Positions 42,001 through 48,000 of a stretch of 64,000 bases of DNA are shown piece after piece. The first letter of the stretch is position 1, and each line of letters starts with the position of its first letter. Origin of the DNA: Laetmonice hystrix. Lineage: Eukaryota. Where the stretch lies: positions 11,408,001 through 11,472,000 of the forward strand of contig OZ249436.1 of NCBI GenBank assembly GCA_965235115.1, written 5' to 3'. The position numbers are program-made.

Positions 42001-45000
42001 ATAGCTCAAGTTAAGAGACCCTGAGATAGGGTCAGGTGAGAGAGATATTTAAGTAGGTGAAATGATCCTATTAAGGGGCATTTCGTCCAATTGTGAAACA
42101 CTGTGAAGTGTTATTGATTATTGTCATCAATACGAGACGTCCAAGTGACATTAGTTTCTTAATTAACATGCAATCATACGTGATCAATTAATTCATTCTT
42201 TGAGCATTTCAGTAGTGGTTTCTCAGTACCGAACTGGTGATGCATTACGTACAGCCATATTTGATACATGTCCAGAAAAACAAGTCATACAAGTTGTAAA
42301 GTTTTTGGGAATATTATGTTATATAGGAGGAAATTATACTAAACAAGCATTTTTTTTTGAGTCTGCAATCTACTGAACTCTATAGGAATCTAGCGTCAGA
42401 TTGTATTAAAGAAGGAATATCAATCACATGACTACATGTATCTATCGATATAAAACTAGCATTTACAGTGAGGCAAAATTAACAGTGAGTGCATTTGGGA
42501 CAGATAATTAACAAGATCAATGGTTTACACGATCTATTAAAATGGTGTGTGCAATCAAAATAAGTAAACTAAGTAAGGTATTAGTGGTGGTGTTAGTAGG
42601 TTGCTGGTATTAGGGAGTACTAGGCACAAGGACACAGACAGCACACAAAACCCTCCCAGCCGGGGAGACTCTCACAAGGGTGACCGCCTTATGTCAGTAG
42701 CGTTTCCCTGACCACCTGGGACTCAAGGGGCAGGCGCAGGAGGAACTTTTCACTGTCCGACCGCCGCACGCCAACGGCAGTTTCAAGGACGTAGAACAAC
42801 TGGGTGAAAACTAGAGTCACAGTTCACGATTCCACCGATCCCTTTAGGATTTCAGACACCCAGGTCTACGCAGGGACCAGGCGAACACATAATGTTTAAA
42901 AAATCAAAAATTAATATTAAAAGGAAACTAAATCACCTGCCCTTAATGTGGGAAAACATTAATGAGAAGCAAAATTGTGACGCAGCCATGGTTGAATGGA
43001 TAAGCTCCCAGGTTGTTAACACCTAATTCAAGACCTTACCCGAATGTCCGTACGCGTTGTCTGACTCAATGGCTTGGCAAGCGTTACGACGCCCGTGTCA
43101 CGGTTCACGTAGAAGAAACTGTCGTCTCCAGTCCTCTCCACCATCTCGTAGTAGACGGAATCCTGAAAGGTCAAATGGTTCTCAGTTAGGATAGCAAATT
43201 CCAACTAGTAACATACACCATTTTGATAACTCATAATTTCATCTCCTTGAGCACCTTATTGTTGACTGATTACACGTACACGCACGCTGACCTAACACCT
43301 GTCTAATTTCTAATTCCATGTAAAACTTTCACTCAGTAAGTTAAGAAGCCAGTATTGTGACGTATACCTTGTCCTTGTCCGTGGCCTTGACCTGGGTGAT
43401 GACCGTGCCGATAGGGATGATCTCGAGAACTTTAGCCGAGTAATCGTACGGCTCGAATCGTGGTCGGTTCAGGTTACGAGTGACTGTGATTGTCAGGTTT
43501 GTCTCTGCCTTGTTTGTAGGATTTGCCTCATCGTATACGTGAGCTTCGATCTGAAATATCATCGCTTTGATATCTAAATACTGGAGTTTTAAACCAAGGG
43601 TGTCTTGTTTTGTTAAACATGCACTCAGCCTCCCTCAAATTGTACATAATATAGAAGTGTGAGTAGGATGAACGCTCACTGAGAGAGCTCACTTACCGTG
43701 TAGTTAAAGAGCCGGTCTGACTTGAGCCCACTCTTCACGTAGATTACTCCCGTTTTTTCACGGACACCGAAGAAATACGGCGCTGGCACGATACCCGTGA
43801 TGTCATAGATCAAGGTACCCTGAGGAAAGAAAAGGGAACAATGTAATGTGACTCATATCCACCTAGTCTCTGTCAAATCATTAATACGTAATATATATAC
43901 GGAATCAGGTTAAATATGTCCAGTCCTGCCTACACTCGGGCAAACGCCGACTTCTCCCAGCCCAGATCCAACCTATCAACCTCACTAGACAGTCAATCTG
44001 ATTGCGATTCATACCATTTTGTCGTCGTCTCGACCCCTCAGTTTGAAGACACTGCGGCCCACAGGTGTTGTCTCTGGGATGATCACCTTGTACGGCAAAC
44101 TCTCAAATGTCGGAGGTTTCAAGTCACGCTGTACACTGATGTAGATCAGGGTAGTGGCTGTCTTCTCAGGTACACCCTTATCACTGGCTTTTATGTTGAA
44201 CTGGAAGCAACATGACATATTATCACGTTTCAGAAACTGAATGGAACCTTCAGAAGAACTAATATATACCGGGTTCAGTGAATGTGTACTGTGTACTCGA
44301 GTACTTACCCTGTAGGAGACTCTGTCCTCCACACTCAACACCTTGGCCAGGGTCAGAACTCCCGTCTCCGGGTGCATGTAGAAGAAATCAGTCTCGGGTT
44401 TCTTAGGAATCAACGTATACTCCAGTTCATCCTGCAAAATAATGAAATCATATTCATATTCTAACATCGTACAATCAGCATCATATTTCGTAATGTCAGA
44501 ATGAAATCTGCTTATAACATTTGAATGACATGAAAGATCTATTCATCACGACAGAATATAAGACGTTGTACCATGTTGAACGGTGACCTTACAACCTGAC
44601 CACTTACCCCATCTCTGTCGGTCGCCTTCACCCTGAGGATGCTCGCTCCCACGTCTGTTTTCTCAGAGAGTGGATCCTTACGGTACTCACTCCTCTCAAA
44701 CCTTGGAGCGAACTCGTTCCTCCTCACTGTGATGTTTACCGTAGCGTATGTCACCTGTTCTCGGACCTCAAACTGTCGCTTCGCCTGCACCTGTAGCTGG
44801 TAGTTACTTAGTTTGGCCACGTCTTGCTTCAGAGATTTCTTTATGGTGATACGCCCACTGCTCTCCTCGATCTTAAAGTAATCTGGAGCGGTGCTGAATC
44901 CAAGGATCGCATACTTCACGTTGTCCTGTCAAACGGATAGTTAAACTTGTCTTTATTTTAATATTTGTAATATTTGTACTTACTGAAATCTGTATCTTTG

Positions 45001-48000
45001 GTCAGGACGAAATCTGCTTATAACACTCGAATGATAGGATAAGTTCTTGCACTAAACGATGTGTTGAAAGGTGACCCACAGCCCGACCACTGGTCACGTG
45101 TGACGTAAATGTGACCCACACGAGATAGGAAGCAAAAACCAAAACCATGTGGTCTCTTTCATCTATCTCAGAATTCACCGGGGGCATATATCTTCTCAGT
45201 GTAAATAGTAAACCAAAGCTGTGCTCATGACCCAAACTTTGACGTATAATGACAGACATCGTAATCAGACAAGACATATACTTACCCCTGGAGCAGCGAC
45301 CACTTTGATGACGTCTGAGTTAACGGCCTTGTTCTCGGACACGGTGGCCCTGTACTCGGATGATGAGAACCTCAGGGTGCCACGGTCCCGGACTACTGTC
45401 ACCACTACCGTCGTCTCGTCAGTCCTCTCCGGCACGCCTTGATCGCGGGCCACAACCTTGATCTGGTAATGTCAATTAGAAAACGTGAACTTCATGAACA
45501 ACATCTAACAATTCTAGAGTTTGGGATTGTTGGAGATTCCACCAGGTGGCGCCACACTACGATCACAACCTAGGTGGAAGGTACGACCGGCAGGAGTGTT
45601 GAATTTATTGAGTAGGATTTCAATGTGTTTCCTTTTGCCATATATTTTCTATTCACCAGGGTATTGAGAAGACTAAATGAGTAGTTGCCTGACTTACCCT
45701 GTAGGCTGAGGTGGTGGTCTGGAGTACCGACTGGAGCAGAGTGATCTCTCCACTAGCCGGGTTGATGTAGAAGTACTTGGGCGACTGTCCCTCTCCAATA
45801 ATGGCATATTGAATCACATTGTTTGGTGCCTGTACCATGCAAAATGACAACACCAACTTATAAACATACACATACAAGGATCAATAAATAGAAAATGAGT
45901 TAACCGTTTACTCTGGGGCCTATATTGGAAACTCTAATTCAATATTCTCCCTATAAGTAAATAACTATAATCCAAACGATTCCAAGTGCCGACCTCTCTG
46001 TCCTTGTCCTTGGCCTCCACCTGAGCGACCCTCATACCAGGAGCTGAGTTGTCTGGGATGGACACCCGCACGTTGTCTGTCACAAACTCGGGAGCGTTCA
46101 GGTTTCGTGTCACCTTAACCTCCACCATGGCTGTGCTACTCTTGGGCGGGGTGCCACCATCTCGGGCCTCGATACGCAGCTGGAGAAAGCAGTAACAACA
46201 TCATTTAGTAAAACAAACGCCTTTGTTAGAGAAATGGATGATGATGTATCTGGCACCAGGTGCACTACGACTTATGACATACAAACTACGCCAATTAAAG
46301 AATATAAGGTGGAGCACTCACAGTGTAGTCAGTATTGGTGTCTCTGGCCAGGCCTGATTCTCTCTTCACTCTCACAGAACCAGTCTGGGTCACCTCAAAG
46401 AAGGTTGGCGCCGAGTCGTCACCAATAAGCCTGAGGACAACGTCTCGGAACGGTTTCTAGAGACAAGAGGACAAGAGAGAAACTGGAGGGGGGACTGACA
46501 CAAAGAATGGTAAGTCAAATGGTCACAGTATGCCGTCCATAGGTAACGGGGTTGAATGGTCACAGTATGCCGTCCATAGGTAACGGGGTCGAATGGCCAC
46601 AGTATGCCGTCCATAGGTAATGGGGTCGAATGGTCACAGTATGCCGTCCATAGGTTTATATATGGTTTAATTTTAGTGTATCATTTTCAAGTGGTTGTTC
46701 CATCATTCCCAGTTCCCGGCAGTGTACTCATATCGCCACCTAGCGGTATGTATTCCTCCGAACGTCGAGCCATGCCTACCATTGCATCCTTGTCCTCCAC
46801 CTTGACCCTGAGCACCTCGCTGCCACCACTGATCGTCTCCGAGATGGTTTTCTTGTAGCTGGTCGGGTCGTCAAAGACGGGAGCGTTCATGTTACGGTCC
46901 ACTTTGATGGATACTGTGGCTGTGTTCTCTGACTTCTGGGCTGGGTCACCCAGGTCGACGGCTCCTATCACAACCTACGGAAAGTAAAAATAACGTCACA
47001 TCAGTTTGATAATGTCCCTTACACTATACTGACGCTCAGTGCTCCAAATCGGCTCATCTGTACGCCAAGTATAAAATAACGTTCTACGTACGATCAGTAC
47101 AGTTGATACCTGATTAACCTGATTCACATTGAGGTATGTGACGTCTGTGACATTTATAGAATGACGGGTTCATTCATTTATGAGGTAACAAGTGAACGAA
47201 GTCAACTGTAACTTACCCTGTATGAGGTTGAGGTGTCAACTGCGAGAGACTTCTTCAGCGAGACCTCTCCACTTTGAGCATTGACCATGAAATAATCTTT
47301 AGCCTTGGTATCTCCCGTTACAACGTACTCCAACTCATTGTCCGGAGCCTGAAACCAGAACGTTATGATCAGGAATCAGGTCAAATCTTTACAATATTCA
47401 CCCACAGGATAATCATTTTTTATGCAAACATTTTGTTTTATCTCAGACAGCCCACACCAATGACATAATAATCCCTAGACGTACCCTCTTGTCGCTGTCT
47501 GAGGCCACCACCTTTGTGATAATCTCCCCAATGGGTAGGGTCTCGAGGACCTTGGCCTGGTAGACGGTTGGGTCGAAACGAGGTTTCTTCAAGTTACGGA
47601 TGACGGTAACACTGACGACGATCGTGTGTGTCCTGGGTGGGGTGCCACCATCCAGAGCAACCACTCGAATCTGATACGTTAAGTAATGGTGATTATCTTC
47701 ATACAGGAAACAATGAGACATACACTTCATTCCTCTCATAATGGGTGAGGCAGACTGCATGGAAACACCAGGTTTAGAGACCACCGTTCTTAATTGCGAA
47801 TTTACCCCGCTACTCACGCATCCAGTTTAAGAAAGTAGAGGAGGAGAGAGAGAGAGTGAGTGTATGTGTGAGACTAACCTTGTACTCTCTGGTAGCATCG
47901 TTCTCCAGATTATTGCTGACAGAGATCAGCCCGCTGTTGGCGTCAATCTTGAAGTAACTACCCGCTGCATCATCTCCGATGATCTCGTACGTGATCTTGT

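What the first reader, a model, noticed from the sequence alone, without database searches (positions are those of the whole stretch)
44608..45462. Candidate fully Ca2+-free hinge 1 at the type I to type II array boundary
Seen: E44 has linker RDRGTLRF (no Asn, no Pro) and ends VVAAPG instead of DxD. The next FG-loop Asp in E45 is also gone (LQVQAKRQF). All ligands of the one remaining site are lost together at a single junction. Known: Ca-free linkers such as PCDH15 EC9-10 and DN-cadherin EC2-3 are bent. Inference: a programmed kink separating two filament segments.
Basis: partly seen in the sequence, partly recalled or inferred. Interest (0 to 1): 0.68.

Follow-up and report, generated by a model that had tools for sequence, protein, structure and literature searches.

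The report
Conserved calcium-free joint in giant cadherin
Two neighbouring repeats of a giant mollusc-type cadherin gene are joined by a link that has lost its usual calcium-binding residues, a loss also kept in oysters, clams and snails, so it is a real built-in calcium-independent joint of an already known general kind, and a structure prediction does not show it kinked.

Summary
On the minus strand, E44 (45462..45286) reads ...VVRDRGTLRF...VVAAPG and E45 (44925..44608) reads ...LQVQAKRQF... Of 59 non-canonical linkers in the window, only two lack the Pro, the DxD and the next FG-loop (XDX) Asp, and they lose all three together.

It is not a single junction. A paralogous copy lies at 29357..28596, at the second type I-to-type II boundary.

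The loss is old and conserved. The same module sits at the same boundaries in Crassostrea, Saccostrea, Tegillarca, Haliotis, Patella, Littorina and Bulinus proteins. The repeat after the joint forms one clade (support 98/98).

"All ligands lost" is slightly overstated. An Asp replaces the linker Asn, and the XDX Asp is replaced by Lys/Arg in 11 of 13 aligned modules, which looks like charge compensation.

The kink is not supported. AlphaFold2 on the Tegillarca homologue (pLDDT 92, pTM 0.66) gives an extended pair. It is as close to straight cadherin pairs as an ordinary type I control, and far from the bent PCDH15 EC9-10.

Best reading: a conserved Ca2+-independent joint held by protein contacts, mechanics untested. 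It is a new member of a known kind. Exons were never joined, so the window's own repeat pair was not folded.

The parts
45698..45829 (-). Exon carrying the middle strands of the repeat before the joint (EC_W): APNNVIQYAIIGEGQSPKYFYINPASGEITLLQSVLQTTTSAYR. It has no acidic residue where other repeats carry the DRE-like L..D/E.
   Evidence: (A row 21). Best collinear match is Tegillarca P0158 1754-1797.
45286..45462 (-). E44: last strands of EC_W, the odd linker VVRDRGTLRF, then the A and B strands of EC_X, ending VVAAPG in place of xDxD.
   Evidence: (B row 24). Pfam Cadherin match only 17.3 bits, below the 28.8 cut-off, because the exon holds just the ends of two repeats. 49% identical to the copy at 29357..29181.
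44926..45285 (-). Intron between E44 and E45 (360 nt). It contains no hidden exon that could restore a DxD.
   Evidence: 25 in-frame, stop-free AG..GT candidates, and 0 of 25 holds D-x-D/E. The E44 frame stops 6 codons after the donor. A TGA lies 2 codons before the E45 acceptor.
44608..44925 (-). E45: the rest of EC_X (FG loop QAKRQF, with Arg where the XDX Asp should be), an ordinary RRNEFAPRF linker, and the first strands of the next repeat ending ATDRDG. It is a fused exon; the paralogue keeps an intron in the middle.
   Evidence: Pfam Cadherin 39.4 bits, E = 8.2e-10. Arg is aligned to the Asp of CELSR1 'AVDHG'. 44% identical to Crassostrea P0159 and Saccostrea P0098.
44309..44431 (-). First type II exon after the joint: DELEYTLIPKKPETDFFYMHPETGVLTLAKVLSVEDRVSYR.
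   Evidence: A row 23. The paralogue at 27754.. is DVIVYRIIPKPLDTDMFYLNPSTGVLTLKK (A row 43).
29532..29663 (-). Second copy, exon of the repeat before the joint: APNNVLSYSISGEGDSAQFFYIHPTDGDITLLKSVRDTGKRDYR.
   Evidence: (A row 41).
29181..29357 (-). Second copy of the E44-type exon (177 nt, the same length): VKVKATDAGVPPRTATAVVEVKVQRDEGDLKFSSQKYNIRVSENRRLNTSIGNVRASPG. The tools print its first GTG as M.
   Evidence: reciprocal best with row 24; 29/59 identical, E = 3e-17; only these two reading frames prefer the hinge model.
28939..29067 (-). Second copy, first half of the E45 equivalent: KNIQYSVVGTSNAPDYFTVVENRGEIRIKKDLRDDPIKANSYL.
   Evidence: 19/41 identical to E45, E = 2e-13.
28596..28781 (-). 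Second copy, second half of the E45 equivalent: LMVQATYQGVRF...TVTRNERQPQF...SATDQDKH. Tyr stands where the XDX Asp should be.
   Evidence: 33/62 identical to E45, E = 2e-15.

Best explanation
The window is part of one giant cadherin gene on the minus strand, about 64 repeats long here. Its relatives are molluscan proteins that databases label 'protocadherin Fat 4-like'. Almost all of its linkers are a reduced x-R-N-x-x-x-P-x-F type. They keep only the ligands of Ca2+ site 3: the Asn, the DxD and the XDX Asp of the next repeat.

At each of the two places where the type I array changes to the type II array there is a special, conserved two-repeat module. In it those site-3 ligands are replaced together:
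- the DxD loop is shortened to x-P-G;
- the XDX Asp becomes Lys or Arg;
- the Pro of PxF becomes Leu;
- the linker Asn becomes Asp.

Most likely no Ca2+ binds here (inferred from sequence). The two repeats are instead held by protein contacts. Possibly the Lys/Arg sits where the ion would be and pairs with the linker Asp (inferred, not shown). The joint's geometry would then not depend on calcium.

The only fold test available predicts an extended joint rather than a kinked one. Whether it is stiffer or floppier than its neighbours is untested.
For: Sequence and counts:
- Exon structure and sequence.
- The triple loss is confined to 2 of 59 junctions, which are each other's best paralogues.
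- Neighbouring linkers: Arg at DXNDN position 2 in 59/59; Asn 46, Asp 11 at position 3; acidic at position 1 in 6/59 and at position 4 in 14/59.
- This matches the PCDH15 EC5-6 precedent: linker PPNNQ, DXD and XDX kept, one Ca2+ at site 3 (PMC7547225, passages read).

Conservation:
- E44-like modules without Pro, DxD or XDX Asp occur in Tegillarca P0158, Crassostrea P0159, Saccostrea P0098, Haliotis P0004, Patella P0013, Littorina P0093, Bulinus P0019 and the unnamed P0011 and P0012 (names).
- The architecture is the same. Crassostrea: type I, joint, three type II, type I again, as at 45.4 kb here. Tegillarca: three type II, 14 type I, joint, 23 type II, as at 29.3 kb here.
- Tree of 109 repeat segments: the 6 post-joint segments, E45 included, form one clade with support 98/98 (SH-aLRT 96).
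- The joint's exons are conserved as well as or better than others. E44 ranks 11 of 64 and the first part of E45 ranks 2 of 61.

Charge swap:
- Lys/Arg at the XDX column in 11 of 13 rows of alignment A3.
- In family proteins, K/R there in 9 of 413 junctions. All 9 follow a DxD-less junction, and 0 of 371 follow a junction with DxD.

Fold:
- Hinge-pair model pLDDT 92.4, linker blocks 91 and 97, pTM 0.66.
- It aligns over both domains with extended cadherin pairs. The best is CELSR1 EC4-7, TM 0.67, 4.7 A.
Against: - No Ca2+ binding was measured or modelled. Two acidic side chains remain near the site: the linker Asp and the Asp at the XEX place of the preceding repeat. The second copy has RDEGD in its linker, so weak binding is not excluded.
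- The Lys/Arg-Asp pairing is inference. I had no coordinates to check the contact.
- The pairing is imperfect. The window's own second copy has Tyr, Patella P0013 has Val and P0012 has Leu at the XDX place. P0007 and P0014 have Arg but no linker acid.
- The counts are over related sequences and are not independent events.
- The fold was made on a Tegillarca homologue (45-49% identical over the E44 and preceding-exon matches) with a 16-row alignment, without ions, by a method that leans towards canonical cadherin geometry.
- Its pTM is lower than the control's (0.66 against 0.73). That could reflect a less certain orientation.
- There are no transcript data for this gene model.
Confidence: 0.6

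Rival explanations
1. One reading: the Ca2+-free junction is a programmed kink or flexible hinge that divides the filament into segments, like PCDH15 EC9-10 or DN-cadherin EC2-3.
For: - Solved Ca2+-free linkers are bent or flexible. PCDH15 EC9-10 is bent by about 90 degrees, and DN-cadherin EC2-3 by about 80 degrees (PMC5120219, passages read).
- The LI-cadherin EC2-3 linker is more flexible than a canonical linker in simulations (PMC8427231, passages read).
- Bendable sites were seen by AFM in DN-cadherin (PMC8325961, passages read).
- The position at an array boundary and the conservation fit a designed discontinuity.
- The hinge model's pTM is a little lower than the control's (0.66 against 0.73).
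Against: - The AlphaFold2 model of the homologous pair is extended.
- Of the 21 PDB chains listed for both models, the hinge model has the higher TM-score in 18, an equal score in 1 and a lower score in 2.
- Its match to the bent PCDH15 EC9-10 (5kj4_A, TM 0.45, 11.9 A) is as poor as the control's (0.44, 12.6 A).
- The DSSP pattern through the linker is the same in both models.
- The linker has normal length and no inserted helix-forming stretch.
- If single-site linkers are themselves flexible, as PCDH15 EC5-6 is, one more soft joint among 59 would not define segments.
Confidence: 0.3
2. The junction still binds Ca2+, at a non-canonical or weak site. It would use the linker Asp, the Asp at the XEX place of the preceding repeat, backbone carbonyls and, in the second copy, the extra Glu and Asp of RDEGD.
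For: - Acidic residues remain.
- An Asp at DXNDN position 3 is normal in 11 of 59 linkers of this gene that keep DxD.
- Marine body fluids hold about 10 mM Ca2+ (my own knowledge), so weak sites could be filled.
Against: - Both DxD acids and the XDX acid are gone in both copies and in the relatives.
- A basic residue occupies the XDX place in 11 of 13 aligned modules. That would repel a cation.
- The B-C loop that carries DxD is shortened by two residues.
Confidence: 0.08
3. Artefact: a decayed or mis-spliced repeat (pseudo-exon, wrong donor, missed micro-exon). The real transcript would carry a normal DxD.
For: - There are no transcript data for this window.
- One in-frame AG..GT candidate in the intron encodes IDERDHM, which contains acidic residues.
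Against: - The frames are open, both ends are phase 0, and the donors are the consensus GGG|GTAAGT.
- 0 of 25 intronic candidates has D-x-D/E. The IDERDHM candidate has a poor donor (GTTTTG) and no pyrimidine tract.
- The paralogue has the same 177-nt exon ending SPG.
- Public gene models from seven named mollusc species read straight through x-P-x to the next strand without a DxD.
- The exons are conserved above the median.
Confidence: 0.03

Closest known systems
PCDH15 EC9-10 Ca2+-free linker (PDB 4XHZ, 5KJ4; PMC5120219, passages read)
   Same: The calcium motifs are lost on both sides of one linker (XEX, DRE, DXNDN, DXD, XDX). The loss is conserved across species, and the linker lies inside a long filament-forming cadherin.
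   Different: - PCDH15 has its own replacement motifs (HPG-E, AIN, DSL), a 3-10 helix in the linker and an FG alpha loop, and is L-shaped.
- Here the linker has normal length, keeps R-D, and puts Lys/Arg at XDX.
- The predicted model matches 5kj4_A poorly (TM 0.45, 11.9 A).
Drosophila N-cadherin EC2-3 and LI-cadherin EC2-3 Ca2+-free linkers (PDB 3UBH, 7CYM; described in PMC5120219, PMC8325961 and PMC8427231, passages read)
   Same: These are Ca2+-free junctions between otherwise ordinary repeats, with the ligands replaced by uncharged or other residues. They are taken as bend or flex points.
   Different: - Those are V-shaped or flexible in structures and simulations. No such bend is predicted here.
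- There is no sequence signature in common. PMC5120219 itself notes that Ca2+-free linkers share no common motif.
- The original DN-cadherin paper (Jin et al. 2012) was not in the library.
PCDH15 EC5-6 partial linker with one Ca2+ at site 3 (PMC7547225, passages read)
   Same: It is the model for this gene's ordinary RN/RD linkers. XEX and DRE are modified, DXNDN is reduced to xxNxx, and DXD and XDX are kept.
   Different: The junction under study has also lost DXD and XDX, so it is not of this class. The invariant Arg before the Asn (59/59) has no counterpart in PPNNQ.
DxD-less junction of FAT1/FAT3-type cadherins (turtle FAT3, catfish Fat1a, hagfish and platypus FAT1, Lottia Fat1)
   Same: It scores with the E44-based profile (20-28 bits). 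It lacks DxD after a '...F..Y.AE..EN' A strand, and the loop reads SAxSxSxxVY.
   Different: It keeps the D-N and the Pro of the linker (T.SDNxxPxF). I did not examine its XDX position. Whether it is homologous to the module here was not tested.

Membership tests
Cadherin extracellular repeat (Pfam PF00028) | Sequence match to the family profile above its curated cut-off | tested here: met
   E45 scores 39.4 bits, E = 8.2e-10, against a cut-off of 28.8. E44 alone scores only 17.3 bits, because it holds the last strands of one repeat and the first two strands of the next.
Cadherin extracellular repeat (Pfam PF00028) | Seven-strand beta-sandwich repeats in tandem | tested here: met
   Tested on the Tegillarca homologue, not on the window's own spliced protein. 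AlphaFold2 gave pLDDT 92.4 and two all-beta domains. Every PDB match in the rows shown is a cadherin.
Ca2+-free cadherin linker (PCDH15 EC9-10, DN-cadherin EC2-3, LI-cadherin EC2-3) | Loss of the acidic ligands of the XEX, DRE, DXNDN, DXD and XDX motifs around one linker | tested here: met
   DRE place: none (LQTTTS). DXNDN: V-R-D-R-G. DXD: A-A-P, with the loop 2 residues shorter. XDX: K-R-Q. Remaining acids: the Asp at the XEX place (IPD) and the Asp at DXNDN position 3.
Ca2+-free cadherin linker (PCDH15 EC9-10, DN-cadherin EC2-3, LI-cadherin EC2-3) | The loss is conserved in orthologues | tested here: met
   The loss is present in the window's second copy and in proteins of seven named mollusc species. 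Clade support is 98/98.
Ca2+-free cadherin linker (PCDH15 EC9-10, DN-cadherin EC2-3, LI-cadherin EC2-3) | No Ca2+ bound in a structure or a binding assay | not testable with these tools
   AlphaFold2 as offered models no ions. No experiment was possible.
Ca2+-free cadherin linker (PCDH15 EC9-10, DN-cadherin EC2-3, LI-cadherin EC2-3) | Bent or flexible geometry between the two repeats | tested here: inconclusive
   The predicted pair is extended, like the type I control. The method cannot show flexibility and leans towards canonical geometry.
Partial, site-3-only linker (PCDH15 EC5-6 type) | DXD and XDX of the following repeat are kept while XEX, DRE and DXNDN are reduced | tested here: not met
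   Not met at this junction. It is met at the other 57 of 59 RN/RD junctions of the window.
Fat4 orthologue (the name sources give to the relatives) | Most linkers are canonical three-Ca2+ linkers (PMC9935876, passages read) | tested here: not met
   Only the first 5 of the 64 linker-bearing segments are not of the RN/RD type, and three of them read D-x-N-D-N/F, at 61.7-58.9 kb. The other 59 are RN/RD.
Fat4 orthologue (the name sources give to the relatives) | 34 repeats followed by EGF and laminin-G domains, a membrane span and the Fat tail | not testable with these tools
   Both ends of the gene lie outside the window. The window alone already holds about 64 repeats.

The most novel reading that the evidence does not exclude
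The joint may not be a hinge but a calcium-independent staple. The Lys/Arg that replaces the XDX Asp would sit where the site-3 ion normally is and salt-bridge the linker Asp. The shortened Pro-Gly loop and the Leu would pack the interface. Together with the Arg that is invariant in all 59 linkers, possibly a built-in cation for sites 1 and 2, this would mean that a whole family of giant molluscan cadherins builds its filament with side-chain charges in place of most calcium ions, and with none at all at the two array boundaries. I found no description of such a way of making a cadherin linker in my searches.
Probability: 0.25. Interest if true: 0.55.

Novelty: new member of a known kind. Interest (0 to 1): 0.35.

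Why it matters
Calcium-free linkers set where long cadherins bend, stretch or fold back. They matter for tip links, for Fat/Dachsous spacing and for insect classical cadherins.

This case adds a conserved example with a recognisable signature (R-D-x-G-x-L-x-F, A-x-P-G, A-x-K/R-Q). It occurs in an apparently undescribed family of very long molluscan cadherins whose ordinary linkers keep only one calcium site.

If the Lys/Arg really takes the place of the ion, it shows how evolution can make a cadherin joint independent of calcium without a special insert. It would also give a simple pair of residues to test.

If it is only one more soft joint, it is ordinary.

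Tried and rejected
- **First homologue search.** The search for homologous proteins with E45, 'longer', reached only proteins of 187-2000 residues. It gave three insect cadherins (30-36% identity), which were no use for orthology. The exhaustive representative search and a second word search from Saccostrea P0098 gave the relatives.
- **The window's own protein.** No protein near-identical to the window's was found. The best exon identities were about 45-55%, so the species' own gene model was not available.
- **Hidden exon or alternative splice sites restoring DxD.** Rejected.
- **A third copy of the joint in the window.** None.
- **Alignment A1.** MAFFT misplaced three window exons, so it was rebuilt as A2 and then A3. 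Alignment A4 held an intron read-through from my wrong coordinates and was rebuilt as A5.
- **A control from the repeats just before the joint in the same proteins.** Prepared but not used. Other proteins were used instead.
- **Complex prediction.** Not used. It scores binding, not geometry between repeats.
- **The third fold search.** Not needed.
- **Sequence search of the PDB.** It gave only generic cadherin matches (CELSR1 best). It was useful only for placing residues against the canonical motifs.
- **Papers.** Tsukasaki 2014 and Powers 2017 are not held. Jin 2012 was not found in the library. These are cited only through other papers' words. A search for a lysine-mimics-calcium precedent found 0 papers. 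PMC12038025 held nothing on this point.
- **Other scans.** Rfam and tRNA scans found nothing, and three intronic plus-strand reading frames had no Pfam match.

Full report
**What the window is.** The 64 kb contain no N. They are filled by one gene on the minus strand, made of short phase-0 exons that encode tandem cadherin repeats.
- An iterated profile search of the window's own reading frames found 64 segments of the kind 'FG loop, linker, A and B strands, DxD' and 63 of the kind 'C to F strands'.
- Pfam confirms Cadherin (PF00028) for E45 (39.4 bits) and for four other exons tested.
- The first five linker-bearing segments (61.7-58.9 kb) are not of the RN/RD type. Three of them read D-x-N-D-N/F.
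- The other 59 read x-R-N/D-x-x-x-P-x-F. Arg is present in 59/59. Asn 46 and Asp 11 stand at DXNDN position 3. Acidic residues are rare at position 1 (6/59) and position 4 (14/59).
- These linkers keep the DxD and the FG-loop Asp of the next repeat. That is the pattern of PCDH15 EC5-6, which binds a single Ca2+ at site 3 (PMC7547225, passages).
- The contig is not human. Its nearest relatives are molluscan.

**Check of the observation.** E44 is 45462..45286 and E45 is 44925..44608, both with good splice sites.
- E44 carries VVRDRGTLRF and ends VVAAPG. E45 carries LQVQAKRQF.
- Among the RN/RD junctions, the Pro is missing in 2 of 59, and the FG Asp in 2 of 58.
- A DxD in the same frame is missing in 3 of 58. 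One of those three has its DxD on the next exon.
- The losses fall on the same two junctions, rows 24/25 and 42/43.
- HMMER alignments to CELSR1 place the E44 Asp at DXNDN position 3, the Gly at position 5 and the Leu at the Pro. They place the Arg of AKRQF opposite the XDX Asp.
An Asp stands where the Asn was. The B-C loop is two residues shorter. The junction is not unique.

**A second copy.** Exons 29357..29181, 29067..28939 and 28781..28596 repeat the module: QRDEGDLKF, VRASPG, VQATYQG.
- The two E44-type exons have the same length and are 49% identical.
- E45 matches the two halves of its counterpart at 46% and 53%.
- The segments are reciprocal best matches among all 64.
- No third copy exists.
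- The order in the window is: 18 type I, joint 1, 3 type II, 14 type I, joint 2, 22 type II.
- E45 is a fused exon. Its counterpart keeps the usual intron.

**Splicing alternatives.** The E44 frame stops six codons past the donor. A TGA lies two codons before the E45 acceptor. Of 25 in-frame AG..GT candidates in the 360-nt intron, none encodes D-x-D/E. There are no transcript data, so this rests on sequence and on the relatives' gene models.

**Relatives.** I searched exon by exon and did not join exons at any step. The spliced protein of the window was therefore never assembled, searched or folded.
- E45 against 1.84 billion representatives gave 2333 hits. The top group is a family with the same RN linkers.
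- That family includes Haliotis rubra, Patella vulgata, Littorina, Bulinus, Plakobranchus, Potamilus, Saccostrea, Lingula and Tubulanus. Most are labelled 'protocadherin Fat 4-like'.
- A second search added Tegillarca granosa, Crassostrea angulata and C. gigas.
- A profile of the two E44-type exons picks out one junction in each of several of these proteins, with the same features. Examples are Tegillarca VSRDSGTLAF / RAEASPG / RATKQG and Crassostrea VTIDDTLRF / VIATPQP / RAEKQF.
- Loss of DxD alone is not rare in the family: 52 of 384 junctions in 22 proteins.
- The architecture is shared. Crassostrea P0159 has type I, joint, three type II, then type I again. Tegillarca P0158 has three type II, 14 type I, joint, 23 type II.
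- Both of the window's joints therefore have orthologues.
- In a tree of 109 repeat segments, the six post-joint segments, E45 included, form one clade (SH-aLRT 96; 98/98). Only 79 columns were kept, and the bootstrap had not fully settled. E45 sits nearest the two oyster sequences.
- The joint's exons are at least as conserved as the rest.

**A coordinated change.**
- In alignment A3 the XDX column is Lys or Arg in 11 of the 13 rows that cover it. The window's second copy has Tyr.
- Over 413 junctions of family proteins, Lys/Arg stands at that column 9 times. It always follows a DxD-less junction and never appears (0 of 371) after a DxD. These rows are relatives, so this is not a probability.
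- Most modules keep an Asp in the linker.
- In canonical cadherins the residue at DXNDN position 3 and the XDX Asp bind the same ion (my knowledge of classical cadherin structures). A Lys/Arg and an Asp at these places could therefore touch. This is inference; I could not inspect coordinates.

**Fold test.** It accepted jobs.
- The homologous pair from Tegillarca (210 aa, 16-row alignment that included the window's single exons as separate rows) gave pLDDT 92.4 and pTM 0.66, with a confident linker.
- A control type I pair from Haliotis rufescens (220 aa, 11 rows) gave pLDDT 93.7 and pTM 0.73.
- The strand pattern through the linker is the same in both models.
- Against the PDB, both models align over both domains with extended cadherin pairs.
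- Of 21 chains listed for both, the hinge model scores higher in 18, equal in 1 and lower in 2. Its best match is CELSR1 EC4-7 (TM 0.67, 4.7 A).
- The bent PCDH15 EC9-10 matches both models equally badly: 0.45 at 11.9 A and 0.44 at 12.6 A.
- So no kink is predicted.
- Limits: no ions, a shallow alignment, a homologue rather than the window's own protein, a method biased towards known geometry, and no measure of flexibility.

**Reading.** The best-supported account is a conserved Ca2+-independent joint at each type I to type II transition, held by protein contacts and possibly a Lys/Arg-Asp pair, and predicted to be extended. Residual weak Ca2+ binding and an annotation artefact are unlikely.

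**Comparison and novelty.** It works like the known Ca2+-free linkers of PCDH15, DN-cadherin and LI-cadherin and meets their sequence definition. It shares no motif with them and is not predicted to be bent.
- It is not of the partial, site-3-only class to which its neighbours belong.
- The gene is not a Fat4 orthologue by linker type.
- Three literature searches found no description of this family or of a basic residue standing in for the ion. The library lacks most subscription papers, and supplements were closed. The motif alignments in the supplements of PMC5120219 and PMC7547225 could bear on this.
- I rate it a new member of a known kind, of moderate interest.

Noticed in passing
window 28596-29663 (minus strand): A second, paralogous copy of the whole joint module lies at the second type I to type II boundary (QRDEGDLKF, VRASPG, VQATYQG). 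It has Tyr rather than Arg at the XDX place and more acidic residues in the linker.
   Followed up: yes
all 59 RN/RD linkers, window 58640 down to 243: Arg is invariant at DXNDN position 2 (59 of 59). It is also invariant in the 11-row alignment of relatives (R103 N104 in A5). It may be a built-in charge standing in for Ca2+ sites 1 and 2.
   Followed up: partly
window 58915-61662 (minus strand): The five most N-terminal linker-bearing segments in the window are not of the RN/RD type. Three read canonically (DQNDNAPKF, DINDNSPVF, DQNDFTPAF). The gene therefore switches from three-site to one-site linkers at about 58.9 kb, and it continues beyond both ends of the window.
   Followed up: no
window 44608-44925; also 48581-49207, 35412-35741, 17479-18018, 14339-14749, 1029-1730: Several exons fuse what are normally two or more exons, which points to intron loss. 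E45 is one of them, while its paralogue keeps the intron at 28938..28782.
   Followed up: partly
window 37329-37608, 32372-32860, 12572-13032, 5189-5421, 1699-2401, 27744-28576, 40191-40830 and others: Twelve of the 16 strong minisatellites abut or overlap exon edges. Two fill whole introns. In four the unit carries a GTRAG donor-like motif. At 37329-37608 a 93-nt unit repeats the end of an exon plus its donor three times in frame (SINEAGDISVKRSLRETELEKLT...), which offers three alternative donors.
   Followed up: partly
window 6534-7427: A G+C-rich 31-nt minisatellite of about 29 copies lies inside an intron. It raises local GC to 0.56 and gives long open frames in all three minus-strand phases. 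These are repeat artefacts, not coding sequence.
   Followed up: no
window 43368-44197 and 243-27468 (type II arrays): Type II repeats come in alternating pairs. One linker reads RN and the next RD (or RS, RQ). The exon that follows begins D.I.Y... after one kind and G.L.Y..G..PAP.FF after the other. All keep DxD and the FG Asp.
   Followed up: partly
proteins P0048, P0072, P0111, P0112, P0135, P0153 (FAT1/FAT3 of vertebrates and Lottia Fat1): True Fat cadherins have one DxD-less junction (T.SDNxxPxF ... SAxSxSxxVY) that scores weakly with the E44-based profile. It may be a distant relative of the joint, or merely convergent.
   Followed up: partly
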